The translations under genes and the position numbers were made by a program. The notes beneath the pieces were generated by a model. That model was not told the origin of the DNA. It worked only from the letters and a program-made list of their open reading frames with translations, and searched no databases. Shown here piece after piece: positions 1-53,938 of a stretch of DNA of 64,000 nt (positions are counted from its first letter, which is position 1; every line of letters starts with the position of its first letter). Source of the DNA: Candidatus Wolfebacteria bacterium RIFOXYB1_FULL_54_12 (GTDB lineage Bacteria > Patescibacteriota > Minisyncoccia > UBA6257 > UBA9933); NCBI GenBank assembly GCA_001793895.1, contig MGIT01000001.1:106508-170507 (forward strand), written 5' to 3'.

Positions 1-530
1 AAATGCCGCCACCGAATGCCCGACACCAATACGAACCCGAACCACACCGAAAACATGAGCAACACGGAACCAAGATCGGGCTGCAAATAGATAAGCGCCG
101 CGGGAATGACGAAATAAATGAACGACTTCGCAAGCGTGGAAAGCCGGGCGATGCTTCGATGGCTTTTTCTGAAAAAGCTCGCCAGCACCACGATGAGCGC
201 AAGGTTCGCAAACACCGATGCCTGAAATTGAAAAGGGCCAATGGGGATCCATGCCTTGTTTCCCCGGATCTCGGGGGCAATGACCAGCGTCAATGCCAAT
301 AATCCGATAGCCGCCGCATAAACACCGAAGATAACCCCGCGGTAGTTTGCGAACGAACGCCAATCGAAATAGGTCACAAACAGCATGAGCGCGAACCCCA
401 TACCGATAAACAACAGCTGCTTCCAAAACAAATCCAAGCTTATGCTCGCCAACTCAAGCAACCCTGCGAACGAAAGAAGCGCAACCGCGCCATTCAACTT
501 CCAATCAAAATGTCGCAAATAAGATAACAT
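1..530 (-). CDS. SEDS-family FtsW/RodA-like protein, N-terminal part (3' end runs off the window)
   Basis: Absent from the ORF track because no stop lies in the window. Own translation from the ATG at 530 gives MLSYLRHFDWKLNGAVALLSFAGLLELASISLDLFWKQLLFIGMGF...FVIPAALIYLQPDLGSVLLMF. It is multi-TM with an LQPDLGS loop typical of FtsW/RodA. Confidence 0.75.
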   Translation of the reverse strand, partial: MLSYLRHFDWKLNGAVALLSFAGLLELASISLDLFWKQLLFIGMGFALMLFVTYFDWRSFANYRGVIFGVYAAAIGLLALTLVIAPEIRGNKAWIPIGPFQFQASVFANLALIVVLASFFRKSHRSIARLSTLAKSFIYFVIPAALIYLQPDLGSVLLMFSVWFGFVLVSGIRWRH

Positions 531-558
531 GTCCTTTTAATCACCGACGCCCTCTCTT

Positions 559-628
559 TGTCATCCTGAACTCGTTTCAGGATCTTATTGTCCATAAACG
601 AGATTCCGGCTCGTAGGCCGGAATGACA
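559..628. repeat. Composite GTCAT-hairpin repeat (two units in inverted orientation)
   Basis: The sequence is tgtcatcctgaactcgtttcaggatc...gagattccggctcgtaggccggaatgaca. Its ends, tgtcat and atgaca, are inverted. Confidence 0.9.
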
Positions 629-690
629 GCTCCTAACTCAAATCCCTTATAGAATACCCGTTAAACGTACCTTTGTCATCTTTCTTGCAA

Positions 691-805
691 TGTATCGACG
701 TTCAACGTCGATACAATCAATATTTGCGTCTTGCAATAACGCAAATATTGCCATTATTTAGCCATTACTTGCTTAAATTCAATTGAGCGACATCGAATGT
801 CGCTC
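691..805. other. Three consecutive perfect hairpins in the rodA/tsaD spacer
   Basis: Hairpin 1, 691-715: tgtatcgacgt-tca-acgtcgataca. Hairpin 2, 719-749: aatatttgcgt-cttgcaata-acgcaaatatt. Hairpin 3, 785-805: gagcgacat-cga-atgtcgctc. None has a T-run. Confidence 0.7.
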
Positions 806-812
806 ATATTCA

Positions 813-1958
813 TCATAAATTCAAATCCCCATTCGCCTCAATTTTATACTTCTTGCCACGCAAATAGTCGATATATCCCGAAACGGCAATCATCAACGCA
901 TTATCGGTAGAAAATTCGCTCACGATCAACAGTGGTCGATCTTTCTTTAGCGTGAACTTCTTTTCGATTGCTTCCGTAAACAAAGCACGCAAGGTGCGGT
1001 TGGCCGAAACTCCGCCCGAGATCATAATGGACTTCGCACCGAATTCTTCTACCGCGCGGAGCGTCTTTTTGATCAGTACATCCGCCGCCGCCTTTTGAAA
1101 ACTCGCGGCAATATCCGCTTTCGGAATACTTTTCCCCGCTTTCGTCAGATCGCGGATATAATACAGCACAGAGGTCTTCAGGCCGGAAAAACTGAAATTA
1201 TAATTTTTATGCCCGATCATCGGACGCGGGAAATCGATCGCCATCGGGTTGCCATCTTTCGCCAAGCGTTCGATTTCAGGCCCGCCCGGATACGGGAGGC
1301 CAATCAAACGCGCAACCTTGTCGAACGCCTCCCCCACCGCATCGTCAACCGTCTCGCCCAATTTTTTAAAATGGGTCAGGTCGTCCATTCTCAACAAAAT
1401 GGTATGACCCCCGCTGATGATCAACGCGATCGCGGGGAATATCCCCGCATTGTCATTCCCGCGGAGGCGGGAATCCACATCCTTACTTACCAAAAAACTA
1501 TATAAGTGCCCCTCCAAATGATTAGTGGGCACCAGCGGCTTGCCATATTTGGCCGCAAGCTCCTTTGCAAATTCAATGCCGGTCCACAATGCAGGTTCCA
1601 AACCAGGCCCAACGGTCACGGTAATGAAATCTACCCGATTCATAAAATCAGCCTCCCCCGCATTGTCATTCCCGCCCTTCTCTTTGTCATTCCCGCGGAG
1701 GCGGGAATCCACCACTATTTTATCAACAATCTCTTTAAATAATAGTGGCAAATTCTCCAAATGCGCGCGCTTTGCCAATCCCGGCACTACGCCGCCATAC
1801 GGCTGGTGCAGCTTGATCTGCGACGCGACCACATCGCCATGTACCTCAAACTTCGGCTTTTCCAAACCCCCGCTCGCCGTAACAAAAGAAAGGGCTGTTT
1901 CATCACAGCTCGTTTCAATCGACAAGATATACACCTTTTGTTTCTTCTCTAAAGACAT
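813..1958 (-). CDS. tsaD: tRNA N6-adenosine threonylcarbamoyltransferase TsaD (Kae1/Gcp family) carrying two repeat-derived in-frame insertions
   Basis: Family motifs seen: ILSIETSCDETA, TVTVGPGLEPAL, NHLEGH, ISGGHT, SGGVSAN. The peptide DSRLRGND occurs twice. Confidence 0.93.
   Translation of the reverse strand: MSLEKKQKVYILSIETSCDETALSFVTASGGLEKPKFEVHGDVVASQIKLHQPYGGVVPGLAKRAHLENLPLLFKEIVDKIVVDSRLRGNDKEKGGNDNAGEADFMNRVDFITVTVGPGLEPALWTGIEFAKELAAKYGKPLVPTNHLEGHLYSFLVSKDVDSRLRGNDNAGIFPAIALIISGGHTILLRMDDLTHFKKLGETVDDAVGEAFDKVARLIGLPYPGGPEIERLAKDGNPMAIDFPRPMIGHKNYNFSFSGLKTSVLYYIRDLTKAGKSIPKADIAASFQKAAADVLIKKTLRAVEEFGAKSIMISGGVSANRTLRALFTEAIEKKFTLKKDRPLLIVSEFSTDNALMIAVSGYIDYLRGKKYKIEANGDLNL
1451..1476. 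repeat. GTCAT-hairpin unit inside the tsaD CDS
   Basis: The sequence tgtcattcccgcggaggcgggaatcc, read on the minus strand in the tsaD frame, gives VDSRLRGNDNAG. Confidence 0.9.
1664..1710. repeat. GTCAT-hairpin unit plus a half unit inside the tsaD CDS
   Basis: The sequence tgtcattcccgcccttctctttgtcattcccgcggaggcgggaatcc encodes VDSRLRGNDKEKGGNDNAG in the tsaD frame. Confidence 0.9.
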
Positions 1959-2018
1959 AGCGAAATATATTTTAGCTTATCGCACCTTGCAGAACAATGC
2001 AAAAATCCATTAGCCATA

Positions 2019-2044
2019 AAGAAGAGGGCTTTAGCCCTCTTCTT
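2019..2044 (-). terminator. Hairpin downstream of the PQ-loop gene
   Basis: The structure is aagaagagggc-ttta-gccctcttctt, an 11-bp perfect stem. Confidence 0.6.
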
Positions 2045-2079
2045 ATCCATAAACTATGAACTGTTGGCTGTGAACTTTT

Positions 2080-2376
2080 TTATATCCCCCAATGTCGTAC
2101 TCCTTTCTTTTCATAGCGGATGATGCCGGAAAGCACCAGCCCTACGCCCAAAAAACCGAACAGGTTAATAACGATCAATGCAATGTTGTGCAACAAAACG
2201 CTGTACAGTAGCAACACAAAATATCCGAATGAAAGGATGCTGTAGGTCAACAACGAAACATCCTTTGCACTGCGCCGTTTATATATTTTTAACGCTTGCG
2301 GAATATTGGCCAAACCCATAACAATTCCCATGAGTCCCGCCAATGAAGCAAATAGTTGAGTAAAGTCGATCATCAA
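2080..2376 (-). CDS. SemiSWEET / PQ-loop small membrane transporter
   Basis: 98 aa with three hydrophobic helices. The PQ motif sits in LANIPQALKIYKRRSAKDVS. Confidence 0.7.
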   Translation of the reverse strand: MMIDFTQLFASLAGLMGIVMGLANIPQALKIYKRRSAKDVSLLTYSILSFGYFVLLLYSVLLHNIALIVINLFGFLGVGLVLSGIIRYEKKGVRHWGI

Positions 2377-2380
2377 TTTC

Positions 2381-2456
2381 TGTCATTCCCGTCCGCCAGC
2401 CGGCGGAGGAATCTATTTATAGAGTACTGGATTCCGGCTCGGAGGCCGGAATGACA
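2381..2456. repeat. Composite GTCAT-hairpin repeat
   Basis: tgtcattcccgtccgccagccggcggaggaatctatttatagagtactggattccggctcggaggccggaatgaca. Confidence 0.9.
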
Positions 2457-2474
2457 ATGCGGTGCCTGCAATAA

Positions 2475-2542
2475 GCAAAATGCCCATGTGGTTGAAGGAG
2501 GATAAAAAGAGCCCTCCTCCTGATGCCACATGGGCATTTTGC
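2475..2542 (-). terminator. Long nested hairpin after ppsA
   Basis: The arms gcaaaatgcccatgtgg and ccacatgggcattttgc form a 17-bp perfect stem around an inner ggagga/tcctcc pair. Confidence 0.6.
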
Positions 2543-2548
2543 GATCAG

Positions 2549-5014
2549 TTATTTTGCTTTCTTGGCAAGTGCCGCCTCCTTCTCCGCGATAGCCATCGTA
2601 GTTTTTACCACCGTGTCGGGATTAAGCGAAATGCTTTCAATACCCGCTTCTACGAGAAACTGGGCAAAGTCCGGGTAATCGCTTGGTGCCTGTCCGCAAA
2701 TGCCGATATATTTCTTGCGGGCGATACACTTAGCAATCACATCCTTGATGAGTGTGGTTACTGCTTCATCCTTTTCGTTGGTGATATATTTAATCTTTTC
2801 ATTGCCGTCACGATCGATACCCACTGTCAGCTGGGTCAGATCGTTCGATCCAATACTCATGCCATCAAACACATCAAGAAACTTATCTGCCAAGATGACA
2901 TTTGCCGGGATTTCGCACATGACATAGGTGCGAATGCCGGTCTTTTTGCCAAGGCCGTTCTTTTCCATAATGGCAAGATTCTTTTTGCCTTCCTCGACGG
3001 TACGGCAAAACGGGATCATGACATGCACATTGTCCAAGCCCATAGCCTCGCGCACCTTTTTGATTGCCTTCAGCTCAAGCACGAATGCATCGGCAAAATC
3101 CGGATGATAATACCGCGAAGCCCCGCGCCAGCCGATCATCGGGTTTTCCTCCTTCGGTTCATACAGCTCACCGCCGATCAACGTACGGTATTCATTCGTT
3201 TTAAAATCGGAGAAACGTACGATGACCTGCTTCGGATAAAATGCCGCGCCGATCTTCGCAATGCCATAAGCAAGCTTATCGATATAGAACTGCACCTTGT
3301 CGTCGTAACCGACGGTCTTTTTGTCGATCTCGCCGACGATCTTCTTGGCGACCTTGTCGCCTTTCTTTGCCTGCGCCTGCAATTTCTTGTAGTTCAGCAA
3401 TGCGTTCGGGTGGATGCCAATCGAAGATGCAATGATGAATTCTTCACGTGCCAAACCAACGCCGCCATTCGGAAGGAACGATTTTTCAAACGCCGTATCC
3501 GGAGTCGCAATGTTCATCGTAATCTTTGTCTTCGTCTGCGGGATCTTTTTTACGTCATGCTCGCGCACGCTAAACTTCTTTGCGCCATCATAGACATATC
3601 CTTCGGTCCCTGCCGTATCAACGGTGACCAGCTTGCCGGTCTTGAGCTTTTTAGTCGCGTCAAGGCTGCCGACAATACACGGAATGCCGAGCTCGCGCGA
3701 CACAATGGCCGCATGCGATGTGCGCCCGCCCTTGTCGGTCACGATCGCGGAAGCGATCTTCATGATAGGCTCCCAATCCGGATCGGTCATGTCGGTCACC
3801 AACACTTCGCCCTGCTTGAACTGGGTAATATTCTTTACATTCATGATCATATGCACCTTGCCAGTCGCGATCTTGCTGCCCACGGAAATGCCCGTGACGA
3901 TCGGAGTGACCTTTTCTTCGAGCACATATTCCTTGACCTTGGTGAGGTCGCGTTCCGCGTGGATGGTTTCCGGTCGCGCCTGCACGATGAACAATTCACC
4001 GGTCTTGCCGTCGCGCGCCCATTCCATATCCATCGGAGTCCAACGATTGTGTACCTTGGTGTAGTGATCTTCGATCAGCACACCCCACTTTGCCAACTGC
4101 AAAACTTCCTTGTCATTCAATACAAATGAATTGCGCTCCTTCGGGCTTGTTTTTACGATCTTGGTCGACTTGGCACCCACGGACGTCGAGGTCATATAAA
4201 CCATTTTCGCATCCTTCGGCGCAAGCTTCTTGTCGATCACCGGATCCATGCCTCCGTTTTTGCCCGCCATCATCTCCTTCAAGCGCGGCTTGAATACCAA
4301 AAACTCATCGGGGGTCACTTCGCCCTGCACGATCATTTCACCCAAGCCCCACACAGCGTTGACCACGACCACATCTTTGAAGCCGGATTCGGTATCGAGC
4401 GTGAACATGACACCCGAGCTGCCAATATCGGAACGGACCATTTTTTGAACGCCCACGGACAAGGCCACCTTAAAGTGGTCGAAGCCCTTGTCGACGCGGT
4501 AGCTGGTTGCACGATCGGTAAAAAGTGACGCCATGGCGGCGCGCACGGCAAAAGAAACATCCTTTGCTCCACGGATGTTCAAAAAGGTTTCGTGCTCGCC
4601 GGCAAACGAAGCACCCGGAAGATCTTCGGCGGTCGCCGAAGAACGAACGGCAACATCTACATTCTTGCCGTATTTCTTTTCCATTTCACGATAGGCGTCT
4701 TCGATCTGCTTGCGCATATCGGCCGGAAACTCGGCTTTTTTGATCGCCTCGCGAATGAACTTGCACTTTTTCTGCAGTTGCGGAATATTCTTCGAATTAA
4801 GGTCCTTTAATGTGTCCTTGATCAACTTCTTCAAACCGGTCTCTTCCAAAAAATCGCGATAGGCTGTTGCCGTTACGATAAAACCGCCCGGGATGTTTAC
4901 CCCCTGCGGAACCAAGTGTTGTAGCATTTCGCCAAGCGATGCGTTTTTACCTCCAACCTCGCCGACATCATTGATGCCGACTTTGTCCATTTTCAGTGTA
5001 TATGATTTCTGCAT
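2549..5014 (-). CDS. ppsA: Phosphoenolpyruvate synthase (pyruvate, water dikinase)
   Basis: Motifs seen: VGGKNASLGEM, the phosphohistidine swivel TDKGGRTSHAAIVSRELGIPCIVG, and GSNDLTQ in the PEP-utilizing domain. The start may be the second Met (MDKVG). Confidence 0.93.
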   Translation of the reverse strand: MQKSYTLKMDKVGINDVGEVGGKNASLGEMLQHLVPQGVNIPGGFIVTATAYRDFLEETGLKKLIKDTLKDLNSKNIPQLQKKCKFIREAIKKAEFPADMRKQIEDAYREMEKKYGKNVDVAVRSSATAEDLPGASFAGEHETFLNIRGAKDVSFAVRAAMASLFTDRATSYRVDKGFDHFKVALSVGVQKMVRSDIGSSGVMFTLDTESGFKDVVVVNAVWGLGEMIVQGEVTPDEFLVFKPRLKEMMAGKNGGMDPVIDKKLAPKDAKMVYMTSTSVGAKSTKIVKTSPKERNSFVLNDKEVLQLAKWGVLIEDHYTKVHNRWTPMDMEWARDGKTGELFIVQARPETIHAERDLTKVKEYVLEEKVTPIVTGISVGSKIATGKVHMIMNVKNITQFKQGEVLVTDMTDPDWEPIMKIASAIVTDKGGRTSHAAIVSRELGIPCIVGSLDATKKLKTGKLVTVDTAGTEGYVYDGAKKFSVREHDVKKIPQTKTKITMNIATPDTAFEKSFLPNGGVGLAREEFIIASSIGIHPNALLNYKKLQAQAKKGDKVAKKIVGEIDKKTVGYDDKVQFYIDKLAYGIAKIGAAFYPKQVIVRFSDFKTNEYRTLIGGELYEPKEENPMIGWRGASRYYHPDFADAFVLELKAIKKVREAMGLDNVHVMIPFCRTVEEGKKNLAIMEKNGLGKKTGIRTYVMCEIPANVILADKFLDVFDGMSIGSNDLTQLTVGIDRDGNEKIKYITNEKDEAVTTLIKDVIAKCIARKKYIGICGQAPSDYPDFAQFLVEAGIESISLNPDTVVKTTMAIAEKEAALAKKAK

Positions 5015-15470: not shown

Positions 15471-15654
15471 TGTCATTCCCGCGGAGGCGGGAATCTATTT
15501 AATACTGGATTCCCGCCTCCGCAGGGATGATACCGTCTCTAATTAATACATTACTCAGCGCATTGTCATTCCGGCCTAAGCCTGTCCGCCAACTGGAGGA
15601 AGCCGGAATCTTGTTGAAAGAACTCGAGATCCCGTGTCGAGGCACGGGATGACA
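15471..15654. repeat. Cluster of about four GTCAT-hairpin units
   Basis: The units are tgtcattcccgcggaggcgggaatc, ggattcccgcctccgcagggatga, tgtcattccggcctaagcc...ggaagccggaatc and gagatcccgtgtcgaggcacgggatgaca. Confidence 0.9.
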
Positions 15655-15749
15655 TCGGAGAGCGACACAGGAAGCAATCGGAATGAATTTATTAGGGATG
15701 GCATGGCAGCTACAAAAAATCGCCGAATATCATTCGACGATTTTTATCG

Positions 15750-16073
15750 TTAGGAAATTTTACCAATTTCTACTTCGGTATAATCCTGCCTATGCGTCTT
15801 GAACTTTCGATAGCGGTTCTTGTTGTGGTAGCGGAAGACGATCTTTTTGTCGTCCCGATCCTTGCTCAACACGGTCGCTTCGACTTTCGCATTGGCCACA
15901 TACGGAGCTCCGATGGTCGCATCGGCGCCATCTTTCTGCTCGTCGGCGACAAGCAAAACCTTATCAAAAACGAACTGCTCGCCAATGGCGGCCTCCAGTT
16001 TTTCTACTCTTAGCTTTTGTCCGGCGGAAACCTTGTACTGCTTTCCACCCGTTTCGATGACTGCAAATTTCAT
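15750..16073 (-). CDS. rplU: 50S ribosomal protein L21
   Basis: The N-terminus is MKFAVIETGGKQYKVSAGQKLRVEKL. Confidence 0.93.
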   Translation of the reverse strand: MKFAVIETGGKQYKVSAGQKLRVEKLEAAIGEQFVFDKVLLVADEQKDGADATIGAPYVANAKVEATVLSKDRDDKKIVFRYHNKNRYRKFKTHRQDYTEVEIGKIS

Positions 16074-16116
16074 ATCACTTAAAGATACCTGAAGACCCTT
16101 AAAATGTCAACAGAAT

Positions 16117-16189
16117 TGTCATTCCCGCGAAGGCGGGAATCCACTACGTTCATATAGATCCCTCCGCCAGTCGGCGGACGGGAATGACA
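16117..16189. repeat. Composite GTCAT-hairpin repeat
   Basis: tgtcattcccgcgaaggcgggaatccac...gatccctccgccagtcggcggacgggaatgaca. Confidence 0.9.
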
Positions 16190-29026: not shown

Positions 29027-29088
29027 TGTCATTCCCGCGGAGGCGGGAATCTATTTAATACTGGATTCCCGCCTCCGCGGGAATGACA
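29027..29088. repeat. Archetypal 62-bp composite GTCAT-hairpin element
   Basis: The sequence is tgtcattcccgcggaggcgggaatctatttaatactggattcccgcctccgcgggaatgaca. It consists of two inverted units around a tatttaatactgg core. Confidence 0.95.
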
Positions 29089-45326: not shown

Positions 45327-45496
45327 TGTCATTCCGAGCCTGCTGTCATCCTGAACTCGTTTCAGGATCTCGCGTACAAACAGTGAGCTTCTGAAATAAA
45401 TTCAGAATGACACTTTAAAAAATATTGTCATTCCCGTCCGCCCACCAGCAGAGGAATCCAGTACCCCGCATTGTCATTCCCGCGAAAGCGGGAATC
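45327..45496. repeat. Cluster of about five GTCAT-hairpin units
   Basis: tgtcattccgagcc; tgtcatcctgaactcgtttcaggatc; ttctgaaataaattcagaatgaca; tgtcattcccgtccgcccaccagcagaggaatcc; tgtcattcccgcgaaagcgggaatc. Confidence 0.9.
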
Positions 45497-45513
45497 TAGT
45501 ACACTAAAAAAGG

Positions 45514-47770: not shown

Positions 47771-47796
47771 AATGGTATTAGTATAGCATAACTTTT

Positions 47797-47904
47797 TGTC
47801 ATTCCGGCGGAGGCCGGAATGACAACATAAGAAGTTTGTCATCCTGAACTCGTTTCAGGATCTCATGGTAGTGCGATGAGATTCCGGCCTCCGCCGGAAT
47901 GACA
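47797..47904. repeat. Three GTCAT-hairpin units
   Basis: tgtcattccggcggaggccggaatgaca; tgtcatcctgaactcgtttcaggatc; gagattccggcctccgccggaatgaca. Confidence 0.95.
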
Positions 47905-51538: not shown

Positions 51539-51564
51539 TGTCATTCCCGCGGAGGCGGGAATCC
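51539..51564. repeat. Single GTCAT-hairpin unit
   Basis: tgtcattcccgcggaggcgggaatcc. Confidence 0.9.
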
Positions 51565-51653
51565 ATTACCATTATGATAGCAAAAACGAGCCAAAAAAGC
51601 CAGCGGCCAGAGGAGTAAAGCCCCTTCAAAACAACCGGGACGCTACAACAAAA

Positions 51654-52323: not shown

Positions 52324-52426
52324 GCCCACACCCTCCTCTTTCTATGGATATATATGTAAAATAAGAGCTAACTCAAACTAACACCTGCGTTGCGCACTGT
52401 CAAACGATATTTAAAAAAATATTTTG

Positions 52427-52497
52427 AGCGGGTAAAGGGAATCGAACCCTCGCTTCAACCTTGGGAAGGTTGCGCACTACCACTATGCAATACCCGC
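52427..52497 (-). tRNA. tRNA-Gly (CCC)
   Basis: Reverse complement: GCGGGTATTGCATAGTGGTAGTGCGCAACCTTCCCAAGGTTGAAGCGAGGGTTCGATTCCCTTTACCCGCT. The anticodon arm is CAACC-TTCCCAA-GGTTG. Confidence 0.88.
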
Positions 52498-52748
52498 AAA
52501 AACGATACAGGCATTATAAAGAACAACCGGACAAAAGTGAAGTCATGGAAATAAAAAAACGACCTCTATGGTCGACGCGAATAAAGAAAACAAACCCGGT
52601 TGATGGCGATCGAACGAACCCAGTATTCCACGCAAGAAGAATGTAAGAATTCCCATATGAAATTGTCTGCCCATGCGCACAATAAAATACTGTATTTAGT
52701 ATAGGGCAACCAAATAAGATATACAACACCCGCACACCTTTTCTGTAA

Positions 52749-53289
52749 CCCCGGCGGAGCTCGCCACGTGGAAAGTAGAAACTTTCTTTACGTGGGCCGG
52801 AGGAGTCCAGCGTTTTCCGCGATAGCGGTAGCTGGACATTCAGACCCTAACAATGCCGGGAATGACGATGCGAGATTGGGTGTCATCCCCGTCCGTCCGC
52901 CAGCCGGCGGACGGAGGGATCCATGGTTTTTGCAGTAGTAGGGCTGGGATACCCAGACTCTGGATTCCCGTTTTCACGGGAATGACAATACCGAGGTGAC
53001 AAAGCAAGAAAATACTCATACAAAAAGGTTGTGACCCCGGCGGAGCTCGCCACGTGGTCCGCCAATGGCGGATCGGAATGACACCATCCACGCATTGTCA
53101 TGTCGACGCCTACCCGCCTTGGTCGGGAAGGCCGGTATCCGGTGTCTTGCATTGTCATTCCGAGAGTAGCGGAGCGGAGCCAAGGAATCTGTTTTTAGTA
53201 CGGATCCCTGCTCCACCTCCGCCAGCTGGCGGATATGGCGGCACGCGGTCGATTTAATTCCGCTTCGCTATATTGCACTCGGGATGACA
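52749..53289. repeat. About 540-bp non-coding tract built from degenerate GTCAT-hairpin units plus a 23-bp duplicate
   Basis: Units include ccgggaatgac, tgtcatccccgtccgtccgccagccggcggacggagggatcc, ctggattcccgttttcacgggaatgaca, ggatcggaatgaca, tgtcatgtcgacgcc, tgtcattccgagagtagcggagcggagccaaggaatc and ctcgggatgaca. The 23-mer ccccggcggagctcgccacgtgg occurs at 52749 and at 53035. Confidence 0.85.
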
Positions 53290-53397
53290 GAAAGAACTGC
53301 TATCGAATTAGTAAACAATTTGCCGTGTTTATTACCACCGCTTGAATTCGTTTGGTATGCGCGTTAGCTAAGCAATAATTGACTACAGCCAATAAGT

Positions 53398-53470
53398 GTT
53401 CTATACTTGTTCTATATTAGAATAAATACATTGAATACTGCTCACGTTTTATTGTTCTATCTACGTTCTA
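53398..53470 (+). promoter_or_regulatory. Candidate operator: two pairs of GTTCTA direct repeats with 11-bp phasing
   Basis: GTTCTA occurs at 53398, 53409, 53454 and 53465. The TTCTA-TAT-TAGAA palindrome lies at 53410-53422. The start codon is at 53477. Confidence 0.5.
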
Positions 53471-53476
53471 ACATAT

Positions 53477-53938
53477 ATGTCCATAACAAAAACACAAAAA
53501 CAAATATTGGATATCTTTGAAAAAAATGGCGGGGCACTTCCTTCGTTTCGCGAAATAGCCCGTCAGATTGGAGTGTCGTCGACAAACACTGTCTCCTATC
53601 ATATAGAGCGCCTGCGAAAGAATGGCTACCTCGATATCGGACACTCCCCCCAAGGGATGGCAAACCTGTCACTTAAAACGATTCTTGCCTTGGATGCGAA
53701 GCCGGGAGTCTACGTGGTTCTCTGCGCGAACAAACCATTTTATATTGGGTCGTCCACGAACATCCGAAAGGACATTCTTGAAACGGTCATTGGCATAGAC
53801 CGGTCCCCGTTTCCACAGATCGTCGGCAAGCCGGAAGAACTGTCCATTGCCTACCACATCATCGAAAGCGAACCCGAACGGGCCGACCTCAAACAATACC
53901 TGCTCGAATTTTACCAAGCCAAGGGCATCGACATATGA
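53477..53938 (+). CDS. LexA-type winged-HTH domain fused to a GIY-YIG-like module
   Basis: N-terminus: TKTQKQILDIFEKNGGALPSFREIARQIGVSSTNTVSYHIERLRKNGYL. C-terminus: PGVYVVLCANKPFYIGSSTNIRKD. The GVY and YIG motifs are separated by 8 residues and followed by Arg. No S24 peptidase domain is present. Confidence 0.7.
   Translation: MSITKTQKQILDIFEKNGGALPSFREIARQIGVSSTNTVSYHIERLRKNGYLDIGHSPQGMANLSLKTILALDAKPGVYVVLCANKPFYIGSSTNIRKDILETVIGIDRSPFPQIVGKPEELSIAYHIIESEPERADLKQYLLEFYQAKGIDI

What the first reader, a model, noticed from the sequence alone, without database searches (positions are those of the whole stretch)
1451..1710. Hairpin repeats inserted in frame, twice, in the essential tsaD gene
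Two copies of the repeat lie inside the tsaD ORF without breaking it. They add VDSRLRGNDNAG (1451-1476) just before the conserved FP..LL.SGGHT block. They add VDSRLRGNDKEKGGNDNAG (1664-1710) just before the conserved TVGPGL block. Both are in the same orientation and frame and translate to the same DSRLRGND peptide. In-frame palindromic-repeat insertions in core genes are known from Rickettsia RPEs. Here a different element appears to do the same in a universally conserved tRNA-modification enzyme.
Basis: partly seen in the sequence, partly recalled or inferred. Interest (0 to 1): 0.65.

Follow-up and report, generated by a model that had tools for sequence, protein, structure and literature searches.

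The report
In-frame hairpin repeats inside tsaD
A small, very widespread bacterial hairpin repeat (the family of Neisseria dRS3/NTS and Rickettsia RPE-6) sits in frame at two places in the tRNA-modification gene tsaD of a groundwater Wolfebacteria (CPR) genome, adding loop peptides without breaking the enzyme; this is a real new example of a known phenomenon.

Summary
tsaD (813-1958, minus strand, 381 aa) contains two exact copies of TGTCATTCCCGCGGAGGCGGGAATCCA plus one half copy. All three are in one orientation and frame and read as DSRLRGND. The window holds about 26 such head-plus-hairpin units against about 3 expected by chance. Nearly all are intergenic; tsaD is the only gene with internal copies. 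Ten independently assembled contigs carry the identical gene. Orthologs at about 78% identity lack both segments. AlphaFold gives a confident TsaD fold, with low confidence only at the two segments, and both are gaps against solved TsaD structures.

The element is not a new kind. Its TGTC head, 8-bp stem beginning AT, 4-nt loop and CCA tail are the published definition of CGTC-1 REPs. That family includes Neisseria dRS3/NTS, the target of the SsnA ssDNA nuclease, and Rickettsia RPE-6. In-frame copies of this family are already described. The exact 25-mer occurs in many phyla and lies in frame in ValRS, PolA, PrmC, UvrB and other genes elsewhere.

Two things are new. The host is a CPR bacterium. 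Across TsaD orthologs, all 12 repeat-derived peptides fall in the same two loops, and every occurrence includes the DSRLRGND frame.

Best explanation: passenger insertions kept only in permissive loops.

The parts
813..1958 (-). tsaD coding sequence (381 aa), intact. The metal ligands H147 and H151 and all columns invariant across 118 and 150 orthologs are conserved.
   Evidence: (TIGR03723, 341 bits); AlphaFold pLDDT 92.5; Foldseek top hits are TsaD 8ifx/4ydu/6n9a
1443..1478 (+). Site-2 repeat unit. The 5' flank CCCCGCAT is 1443-1450, head TGTC 1451-1454, stem ATTCCCGC 1455-1462, loop GGAG 1463-1466, stem GCGGGAAT 1467-1474, tail CCA 1475-1477. tsaD reads it as VDSRLRGNDNAG (residues 161-172), between the HxxxH helix and the FPAIALI strand.
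   Evidence: 8-bp stem, about -14.5 kcal/mol; pLDDT 64 for residues 161-170; gap against T. maritima TsaD
1656..1676 (+). Site-1 partial unit: 5' flank CCCCGCAT, head TGTC 1664-1667 and left arm ATTCCCGCC only. tsaD reads it as GGNDNAG.
   Evidence: (D5, D6). Its left arm can pair with the far (3') arm of the adjacent full unit (9-bp stem, 23-nt loop).
1677..1712 (+). Site-1 full unit: flank CTTCTCTT, head TGTC 1685-1688, stem 1689-1696, loop GGAG 1697-1700, stem 1701-1708, tail CCA 1709-1711. tsaD reads it as VDSRLRGNDKEK (residues 83-94), at the C-terminal end of helix alpha1.
   Evidence: pLDDT 79/68 for residues 81-100; phmmer splits the alignment here
559..628 (.). Inverted dimer of two related units in the tsaD-ftsW spacer: TGTCATCCTGAACTCGTTTCAGGATC (+) and TGTCATTCCGGCCTACGAGCCGGAATC (-).
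2381..2456 (.). Inverted dimer of related units in the spacer upstream of the PQ-loop gene.
   Evidence: (I4)
15471..15531 (.). Intergenic inverted dimer of the same subfamily (1 and 3 mismatches).
16117..16143 (+). Intergenic copy with 1 mismatch. Together with the unit headed at 16188 (-) it flanks the L21 gene.
29027..29088 (.). Intergenic inverted dimer, both units (near-)exact, heads outward, about 11-14 nt between the units.
45472..45498 (+). Intergenic copy with loop GAAA, in a cluster with units at 45344, 45388 and 45427.
51539..51565 (+). Intergenic exact copy (TGTCATTCCCGCGGAGGCGGGAATCCA).

Best explanation
The two segments are copies of a small repetitive extragenic palindrome of the CGTC-1 / dRS3 / NTS type. 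It has an unpaired TGTC head, an 8-bp stem, a 4-nt loop and a CCA tail, and it has multiplied throughout this Wolfebacteria genome.

Shown: copies landed inside tsaD. They survive because the added length keeps the reading frame and this frame of the palindrome has no stop codon. It encodes a hydrophilic, loop-friendly peptide (DSRLRGND). Both sites are loops that tolerate length variation.

Inferred: the peptides are passengers, and TsaD still works. Selection is the filter that makes the same two loops the only places where such copies are seen in TsaD orthologs. The way the repeat spreads is unknown. The most likely route involves single-stranded DNA hairpins, and it may be linked to SsnA-type GIY-YIG nucleases, which are associated with this repeat in other genomes.
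For: Identity with a dispersed repeat:
- Exact 25-29-nt matches to intergenic copies, 0 expected by chance.
- About 26 real units in 64 kb, nearly all in the 12% of the window that is non-coding, often as inverted dimers.

Lineage-specific:
- 353-aa orthologs lack both segments. Their short loops (..PDIKK.., GGMDPEQL) resemble those of T. maritima TsaD.

Gene intact and real:
- TIGR03723 is above its cut-off.
- All invariant columns are kept.
- The AlphaFold pLDDT is 92.5, with dips only at residues 81-100 and 161-170. The fold matches TsaD structures.
- Ten independently assembled contigs carry identical DNA.

Permissive loops:
- In 149 diverse TsaD representatives, extra residues pile up at reference positions 85-106 and 164, and also at 238, 274 and 370.
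- Loop lengths range from 6 to 40 and from 9 to 37 among 118 orthologs.

Generality:
- The exact 25-mer occurs in at least 118 stretches of genomes from many phyla.
- It is in frame inside ValRS (2 sites), PolA, PrmC, a SpoU methylase, Wzy_C and UvrB, using all five stop-free frames.

Literature:
- CGTC REPs include RPE-6/RPE-4 and dRS3, and intragenic copies are known (PMC3733652).
- RPEs insert in frame (PMC10969869).
Against: - Function of the inserted TsaD is not demonstrated, and no peptide or read-level data were available.
- Site 1 abuts the C-terminal end of helix alpha1, one of the helices of the TsaB-TsaD bundle (PMC6009658), so neutrality there is assumed, not shown.
- A pure selection filter does not obviously explain two features of TsaD. 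Each of the roughly 9 separable occurrences, counted by eye and not all proven independent, includes a unit in the DSRLRGND frame, although other proteins use all five frames. At site 2, three lineages (P0001, P0005, P0074) carry the hairpin at exactly the same distance, 12 codons, from the conserved FP.
- No ssnA or transposase gene was found in the 64-kb window.
Confidence: 0.8

Rival explanations
1. Targeted insertion. The two TsaD loops are specific landing sites. The repeat, or gene conversion from another copy, is directed to a particular DNA sequence or structure, so the same nucleotide position and frame are hit repeatedly in separate lineages.
For: - All 12 CGTC-type peptides in 118 orthologs lie in the two loops.
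- At site 2 the unit sits 12 codons before FP in P0001, P0005 and P0074, although the flanking codons differ and the proteins are only 53-82% identical.
- In the NJ tree, filled alleles are scattered among empty ones.
- The native sequence next to site 2 (ATATTCCCCGCG) and at site 1 (ATGGAYCC) partly resembles the repeat arms (I9, 30).
Against: - A scan of repeat-free tsaD genes for the best 11-nt matches to the element does not single out the two sites. Equal or better matches elsewhere in the gene carry no insertion.
- In other proteins the same 25-mer is found at unrelated sites and in all five frames.
- The two loops are general insertion hot spots for unrelated sequences as well, which fits a selection filter.
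- The NJ tree has no support values.
Confidence: 0.12
2. Old insertion plus concerted evolution and recombination. The repeat entered each loop once, long ago. Gene conversion from the many genomic copies kept its core identical, and homologous recombination between lineages distributed filled and empty alleles.
For: - The 27-nt core is identical in the window and L001, while the flanking codons are saturated with changes.
- Window and L004 are 100% identical over the 3' part of tsaD and on into ftsW, about 90% identical in the 5' half of tsaD, and unrelated upstream. This is a mosaic pattern.
- P0008 carries nearly the same site-1 dimer as P0002, while its sister P0017 is empty.
Against: - The empty alleles share a conserved native loop that resembles T. 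maritima TsaD. The empty state is therefore ancestral and cannot easily be regenerated by deletion.
- P0024 and P0074 are only 53-61% identical and lie in other clades.
- L004 could be a chimeric metagenome contig.
Confidence: 0.15
3. Exaptation. The inserted hairpins or peptides now have a function. Examples would be Arg-rich loop peptides that contact tRNA, TsaB or TsaE, or intragenic NTS-like sites cut by an SsnA-type ssDNA nuclease that limit recombination tracts in this gene.
For: - The DSRLRGND frame recurs in TsaD.
- A sharp change in identity between window and L004 begins about 60 nt downstream of the site-2 repeat.
- SsnA cuts incoming ssDNA at NTS and shortens recombination tracts in Neisseria (PMC11893778).
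- SsnA-like genes flanked by TGTCAT hairpins exist in CPR (Roizmanbacteria).
Against: - Close orthologs do without the inserts.
- Confidence in the model is low at the inserts and no conserved contacts are known.
- There is no ssnA in the window.
- None of 149 diverse TsaD representatives has such peptides.
- The identity change may be an assembly chimera.
Confidence: 0.05
4. Artefact or decay. The repeats inside tsaD come from misassembly across repeats, or the gene is a pseudogene.
For: Short repeats can mislead short-read assemblers. Read-level support was not checked.
Against: - Ten fetched contigs (of 13 read) from different samples, held in JGI and ENA assemblies, give identical DNA.
- The 25-nt repeat is much shorter than the k-mers used (k127, k141).
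- Orthologs in other metagenomes show the same kind of insert at the same sites.
- The ORF is intact, all catalytic motifs are present and the fold prediction is confident.
Confidence: 0.02

Closest known systems
CGTC-tagged REPs, family CGTC-1 (Di Nocera et al. 2013, BMC Genomics 14:522, PMC3733652)
   Same: An unpaired tetranucleotide head (the paper states that CGTC is changed to TGTC in many repeats), an 8-bp stem starting with AT, a 4-nt loop and a CCA tail. Many mostly intergenic copies, frequent inverted dimers, several sub-types in one genome, and occasional in-frame intragenic copies, sometimes twice in one gene. No adjacent transposase.
   Different: The head is TGTC in all window copies. 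The host phylum (Patescibacteria/CPR) is not among the five phyla listed in 2013. The host gene is tsaD, whereas the paper stresses replication and repair genes and pseudouridine synthases.
Neisseria dRS3 / NTS repeats and the SsnA ssDNA nuclease (Chenal et al. 2025, Nat Commun 16:2388, PMC11893778)
   Same: 25 of 28 positions match the NTS consensus CGTCATTCCCGCGMAVGCGGGAATCYRG, including the ATTCCC-N8-GGGAAT core and the oriented upstream GTCAT. In other genomes the exact 25-mer flanks ~95-100-aa GIY-YIG genes on both sides. SsnA-like genes flanked by TGTCAT hairpins also occur in CPR.
   Different: There are three mismatches to NTS (first base, loop, last base). No ssnA is present in the 64-kb window. 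[quoted passage not shown] No link to natural transformation is known for Wolfebacteria.
Rickettsia palindromic elements (Ogata et al. 2000 Science 290:347; reviewed in PMC10969869)
   Same: Palindromic repeats are inserted in frame in housekeeping genes and add peptides at places compatible with the protein fold. The same gene can be hit twice.
   Different: Classic RPE-1 is about 100-150 bp and encodes 30-50 aa. Here the unit is about 27-36 bp (9-12 aa). According to PMC3733652, RPE-6 and RPE-4 are CGTC REPs and are therefore the close relatives. A direct sequence comparison with R. conorii was not made here.
GTAG REPs / REPINs mobilised by RAYT transposases
   Same: Short hairpins with an unpaired conserved head, inverted doublets and high copy number in intergenic DNA.
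   Different: The head is not GTAG, and no RAYT (IS200/IS605 Y1 transposase) was seen next to copies in the window.

Membership tests
CGTC-1 REP (PMC3733652) | Unpaired 5' tetranucleotide CGTC (variants TGTC or CCTC accepted by the authors) | tested here: met
   TGTC precedes the stem in both tsaD copies and in nearly all of the ~26 genuine units (four weak census hits have CGTC). This is the variant form, not the consensus.
CGTC-1 REP (PMC3733652) | 8-bp stem with complementary A-T at the first two positions, and a 4-nt loop | tested here: met
   ATTCCCGC / GGAG / GCGGGAAT. The fold gives an 8-bp stem and a 4-nt loop at about -14.5 kcal/mol.
CGTC-1 REP (PMC3733652) | Short unpaired 3' tail, consensus CCA | tested here: met
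   CCA follows both tsaD copies. Other copies have CCA, CTA or CTC.
CGTC-1 REP (PMC3733652) | Dispersed, mostly extragenic, often in inverted dimers | tested here: met
   33 hits against 3.3 expected. Dimers are at 559/603, 2381/2431, 15471/15507, 16117/16188, 29027/29065, 45344/45388 and 47837/47881, all with heads outward. Whether this equals the paper's 'HH' type was not resolved.
CGTC-1 REP (PMC3733652) | No dedicated transposase next to the repeats | tested here: inconclusive
   No RAYT or transposase was found among the ORFs tested. A motif scan found only one GIY-YIG-like ORF. Only part of the window's ORFs were searched against Pfam, and the rest of the genome was not seen.
NTS/SRM-SsnA system (PMC11893778) | Match to CGTCATTCCCGCGMAVGCGGGAATCYRG (the authors allowed 1 mismatch) | tested here: not met
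   TGTCATTCCCGCGGAGGCGGGAATCCAC has 3 mismatches (positions 1, 14 and 28). It may still fit the looser SRM motif, whose definition I did not have.
NTS/SRM-SsnA system (PMC11893778) | A cd10448 GIY-YIG gene (ssnA, about 94 aa) in the same genome, typically flanked by the repeat | tested here: inconclusive
   No homolog in the 64-kb window (tblastn), and the remainder of the genome was not available. The exact 25-mer flanks SsnA-like genes in L024, L073 and L081. CPR genomes have SsnA-like genes flanked by TGTCAT hairpins.
NTS/SRM-SsnA system (PMC11893778) | Strand-specific cleavage of the hairpin in ssDNA by the nuclease | not testable with these tools
   This is a biochemical assay.
Rickettsia palindromic elements | In-frame insertion in protein-coding genes at positions compatible with the fold | tested here: met
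   The ORF is intact. The inserts are the only low-pLDDT stretches and are gaps against solved TsaD structures.
Rickettsia palindromic elements | Sequence homology to an RPE family (RPE-1 to RPE-10) | not tested
   No Rickettsia RPE sequences were compared. The link rests on PMC3733652 (RPE-6 = CGTC-1, RPE-4 = CGTC-4). The unit length of about 30 bp excludes RPE-1.
GTAG REP / RAYT | GTAG head and an associated RAYT gene | tested here: not met
   The head is TGTC, and no Y1 transposase was found near copies in the window.
TsaD (TIGR03723) | Profile score above the curated cut-off, metal-binding HxxxH, and the conserved SGGHT and GPG motifs | tested here: met
   341.4 bits against a cut-off of 296.1. 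H147, H151, S182-T186 and G117-G119 are conserved. The fold matches TsaD chains with TM 0.85-0.88.

The most novel reading that the evidence does not exclude
The two TsaD loops may be true landing sites. On this reading the same CGTC-1 hairpin entered at the same codon position and in the same frame in several separate CPR lineages. It would have done so by a directed, ssDNA-hairpin-based mechanism, possibly linked to SsnA-type nucleases. The intragenic hairpins would also mark recombination boundaries that make tsaD a mosaic gene.
Probability: 0.12. Interest if true: 0.6.

Novelty: new member of a known kind. Interest (0 to 1): 0.4.

Why it matters
- It extends in-frame REP insertion from Rickettsia and a few Proteobacteria to the Candidate Phyla Radiation. 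CGTC/NTS-type repeats have not, to my knowledge, been described there. The two key papers do not list the phylum, and a full-text search for the peptides found nothing.
- It offers a simple source for some of the odd loop insertions in CPR housekeeping proteins. TsaD, ValRS, PolA, PrmC and a SpoU methylase were seen here.
- It gives a natural data set for asking whether repeated hits reflect tolerance or targeting: two loops, several lineages, and every occurrence including the same frame.
- For annotation, peptides such as DSRLRGND, VIPAEAGI and SFPRRRES inside conserved proteins should be read as repeat-derived.

Tried and rejected
- Half copy in ftsW (98-113). The 'VIPA' there is native sequence conserved in orthologs, so it is a chance match and not an insertion.
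- Microhomology targeting. In repeat-free tsaD genes, the best 11-nt matches to the element are not at the two sites.
- ssnA in the window. There is no tblastn hit. The small ORF flanked by repeats at 15750-16073 reads as ribosomal protein L21 by inspection, not a nuclease. The ORF at 53477-53938 has a LexA-type HTH and only a sub-threshold GIY-YIG motif (17.6 bits against a cut-off of 22.6), with no detectable similarity to SsnA-like proteins.
- Known RNA family. Rfam has nothing near threshold in 1-3000.
- Target-site features from filled-versus-empty intergenic comparisons. The spacers of window, L001, L002 and L015 cannot be aligned.
- Wider TsaD sample. None of 149 representatives at 50% identity has CGTC-type peptides, so the TsaD cases are confined to the Wolfebacteria-like clade plus a few other Parcubacteria.
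- Literature search for the peptide strings found no paper.
- Intragenic candidates in high-GC genomes (L039, L051, L055, L060, L077, L083, L087) were left unverified or look like spurious stop-free ORFs. They were not counted.
Full report
**What is there**

The window comes from Candidatus Wolfebacteria bacterium RIFOXYB1_FULL_54_12; its TsaD protein is 100% identical to that entry. The only long ORF over the flagged region is 813-1958 on the minus strand, 381 aa. It scores 341 bits against the TsaD equivalog TIGR03723, whose cut-off is 296.

On the + strand, TGTCATTCCCGCGGAGGCGGGAATCCA occurs exactly at 1451-1477 and 1685-1711. A half copy (TGTCATTCCCGCC) lies at 1664-1676. Read on the tsaD strand these give VDSRLRGNDNAG (1443-1478, residues 161-172) and VDSRLRGNDKEKGGNDNAG (1656-1712, residues 83-101). 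Orientation and frame are the same at both sites.

**More than chance, and part of a family**

- With up to three mismatches the 25-mer has 10 matches in the window against 0.00 expected.
- A census of 'head [CT]GTCAT plus a 7-9-bp stem' gives 33 hits against 3.3 +/- 1.4 in shuffled sequence. About 26 of these are clearly genuine.
- Several sub-types occur. They share the head TGTC, a stem beginning AT and the tail C(C/T)A. Stems are ATTCCCGC, ATTCCGGC, ATCCTGAA and ATCCCGxx.
- Nearly all lie in the roughly 12% of the window that is non-coding. Many form inverted dimers with heads outward, at 559/603, 2381/2431, 15471/15507, 16117/16188, 29027/29065, 45344/45388 and 47837/47881.
- Among about 55 genes, tsaD is the only one with internal copies. 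The apparent half copy in ftsW (98-113) is native, conserved 'VIPA' sequence.
- The unit folds into an 8-bp stem with a 4-nt loop at about -14.5 kcal/mol.

**Not an artefact, not a pseudogene**

Thirteen contigs were read that carry the identical protein. The 10 fetched come from different samples, in JGI and ENA assemblies, and have no difference from the window across tsaD and its flanks. Read-level data were not available.

All columns invariant across 118 and 150 orthologs are kept, including H147/H151, SGGHT and GPG. AlphaFold2 gives pLDDT 92.5 and pTM 0.90. The only dips are at residues 81-100 (79/68) and 161-170 (64), which are the two segments. The model matches solved TsaD chains (8ifx, 4ydu, 6n9a) with TM 0.85-0.88 normalised to the target.

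**Lineage-specific insertions in loops**

Wolfebacteria orthologs of 353 aa, about 78% identical, lack both segments. Their loops are 'DGGMDPEQL' and '..SKEKPDIKKI'. Against these, the window protein is 22 residues longer at site 1 and 6 residues longer at site 2. At site 2 part of the native loop was replaced.

Against T. maritima TsaD both segments are gaps. Site 1 follows helix alpha1 (model H59-87), which is one of the helices of the TsaB-TsaD bundle according to PMC6009658. Site 2 lies between the helix carrying HxxxH and the strand FPAIALI. Neutrality of the site-1 insert with respect to TsaB is assumed, not shown.

**The same two loops are hit again and again**

Among 118 orthologs, 10 proteins carry 12 peptides of this repeat type, and all 12 lie in these two loops.

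- DNA confirms that they are repeat copies.
  - L001 (P0005) has GATTCCCGCCTCCGCGGGAATGACAAT at site 2, 27/27 identical to the window, although the flanking codons differ.
  - L018 (P0074, 53% identical) has the same unit at the same place.
  - L017 (P0024, about 60%) and L015 (P0007) have units at site 1.
  - L004 (P0002) and L137 (P0008) carry a complete inverted dimer in frame at site 1, read as TPAEAGVQ..DSGLRRND.
- In a neighbour-joining tree with the loops masked, filled alleles are scattered among empty ones (no support values).
- The empty loops resemble the T. maritima loop, so the empty state is ancestral.
- In 149 more diverse representatives (40-58% identity) no such peptide is found. 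Extra residues of other kinds pile up at reference positions 85-106 (the strongest hot spot) and 164, as well as 238, 274 and 370. The two sites are thus generally permissive loops.

**What the element is**

Its anatomy matches point by point the CGTC-1 family of Di Nocera et al. 2013 (PMC3733652):

- 8-bp stems with A-T at the first two positions;
- 4-nt loops and CCA tails;
- predominance of inverted dimers;
- no dedicated transposase;
- intragenic copies in several species, sometimes twice in one ORF.

That paper equates CGTC-1 with Neisseria dRS3 and with R. conorii RPE-6, and CGTC-4 with RPE-4.

Chenal et al. 2025 (PMC11893778) extended dRS3 to the oriented 28-nt NTS, CGTCATTCCCGCGMAVGCGGGAATCYRG. 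They showed that the 94-aa GIY-YIG protein SsnA cuts it in single-stranded DNA, and that ssnA genes are often flanked by the repeat. The window unit matches NTS at 25 of 28 positions.

These came from many classes of Patescibacteria, Rickettsiales, several proteobacterial classes, Planctomycetota, Cloacimonadota, Chloroflexota, Omnitrophota and others.

- In three of the 80 fetched loci, a ~95-100-aa (by predicted Met start) GIY-YIG gene has the repeat close by: on both sides in L073 and L081, and two units just downstream in L024.
- Related ~97-aa proteins are annotated in Roizmanbacteria and 'Patescibacteria group' genomes. In one Roizmanbacteria locus the gene is flanked by TGTCATTCCCTCGAAGGAGGGAATCCAG-type units.
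- No such gene lies in the 64-kb window. The rest of the genome could not be examined.

**In-frame copies elsewhere**

In the fetched loci the exact 25-mer lies inside verified genes:

| Locus | Gene | Note |
|---|---|---|
| L094 | valyl-tRNA synthetase | two sites, one a dimer; annotated 'Patescibacteria group' |
| L034 | DNA polymerase I | annotated 'Patescibacteria group' |
| L035 | PrmC | annotated 'Patescibacteria group' |
| L069 | SpoU methylase | annotated 'Patescibacteria group' |
| L022 | Wzy_C protein | Candidatus Paceibacterota |
| L043 | UvrB | a deltaproteobacterium |

All five stop-free frames are used: DSRLRGND, VIPAEAGI, SFPRRRES, CHSRGGGN and WIPASAGMT. The sixth frame has a TGA. 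The tsaD case is therefore one instance of a general, already described behaviour of this repeat family.

**How it most likely works**

- Shown: the segments are repeat copies, in frame, lineage-specific, in variable loops of an otherwise intact and confidently folded enzyme.
- Inferred: copies arise anywhere. Only those that keep the frame, avoid the stop-containing frame and fall in permissive loops survive. The peptides are passengers.
- Unknown: the copying mechanism. An ssDNA-hairpin route linked to SsnA-type nucleases is the best lead from the literature, but it is not tested for this genome.

**What remains unexplained**

In TsaD, each of the roughly nine separable occurrences, counted by eye and not all proven independent, includes a unit in the DSRLRGND frame. 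At site 2, three lineages have the unit exactly 12 codons before the conserved FP. This could reflect stricter tolerance at these loops, targeting, or spread by recombination.

- A microhomology scan did not single out the two sites.
- Window and L004 are 100% identical from about position 1120 through ftsW, about 99% identical between about 1385 and 1120, about 90% identical in the 5' half of tsaD, and unrelated upstream. This is either a recombination mosaic or a chimeric contig.

**Verdict**

The finding is real and correctly interpreted, except that the element is not 'different'. It belongs to the CGTC-1 / dRS3 / NTS / RPE-6 family. It is a new member of a known kind, with a modestly interesting twist: a CPR host and recurrent same-loop, same-frame occupation.

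Noticed in passing
window 52500-53938: About 1 kb of non-coding DNA next to tRNA-Gly (52426-52497) is packed with several hairpin-repeat types (heads at 52866, 52986, 53082 and 53154). It is followed by a 153-aa ORF (53477-53938) with a LexA-type winged-helix domain and a sub-threshold GIY-YIG motif (GVYVV..FYIGSS..R). This is the only GIY-YIG-like ORF in the window. No similarity to SsnA-like proteins was detectable.
   Followed up: partly
window 523-1958 versus L004 2860-4460: Window and contig L004 (JGI 3300009031) are 100% identical from about window position 1120 through the tsaD-ftsW spacer and into ftsW. They are about 99% identical between about 1385 and 1120, about 90% identical in the 5' half of tsaD with different loop inserts, and unrelated upstream, where L004 has MFS and NYN genes. 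This is either a recombination breakpoint inside tsaD or a chimeric metagenome contig. L004 also has a frameshift in ftsW.
   Followed up: partly
L094 395-3181 (-), L034 1-2028, L035 5440-6270, L069 3467-4105, L022 142-1860 (-), L043 5242-7266: The exact same 25-mer lies in frame inside ValRS (two sites, one an inverted dimer VIPAEAGNQ..DSRLHGND), DNA polymerase I, PrmC, a SpoU methylase and a Wzy_C protein of CPR genomes. It also lies in frame in UvrB of a deltaproteobacterium. Five different reading frames are used.
   Followed up: partly
window 47796-47825: A perfect 30-nt palindrome, TTGTCATTCCGGCGGAGGCCGGAATGACAA, has two TGTCAT heads sharing one hairpin. It lies just upstream of, or within the first codons of, a short-chain dehydrogenase ORF whose Pfam domain starts only at residue 30.
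   Followed up: no
window 685-812: The tsaD-ftsW spacer also holds three unrelated short hairpins (for example TGTATCGACGTTCAACGTCGATACA, ATATTTGCGTCTTGCAATAACGCAAATAT and GAGCGACATCGAATGTCGCTC). The spacer is 282 nt here but only about 65 nt in L002. Similar 'ATCGAC..GTCGAT' hairpins occur downstream of tsaD in L015.
   Followed up: no
window 2475-2542: A 28-nt-arm inverted repeat (86% complementary, 12-nt loop) lies directly after the PEP-utilising enzyme gene. It is conserved in L002 and is probably a terminator-like structure.
   Followed up: no
window 15471-16188: The ORF at 15750-16073, which reads as ribosomal protein L21 by inspection, is bracketed on both sides by repeat units or dimers (15471/15507/15564/15629 and 16117/16188).
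   Followed up: no
alignments A2 and A3 (TsaD orthologs): Parcubacteria TsaD loops commonly carry other repeat-like or low-complexity peptides, such as KHEARNSKQKSFGFRNSDF, SNYEFKITN, DTRYEIRD, ISNFQFPISNQ and SAKGGSASGGK. Further insertion hot spots lie at reference positions 238, 274 and 370. Some representatives reach 430-490 aa.
   Followed up: partly
one search hit list; L138/L139: SsnA-like ~97-aa GIY-YIG proteins are very often on very short contigs (0.5-2 kb), as expected for multi-copy or repeat-flanked genes. In Roizmanbacteria one copy sits beside an IS3-type transposase (rve) in some contigs but not in others.
   Followed up: no
window 1-64000: GC skew is negative along the whole + strand and most genes are on the minus strand. 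The window therefore lies within one replichore with genes co-oriented.
   Followed up: no
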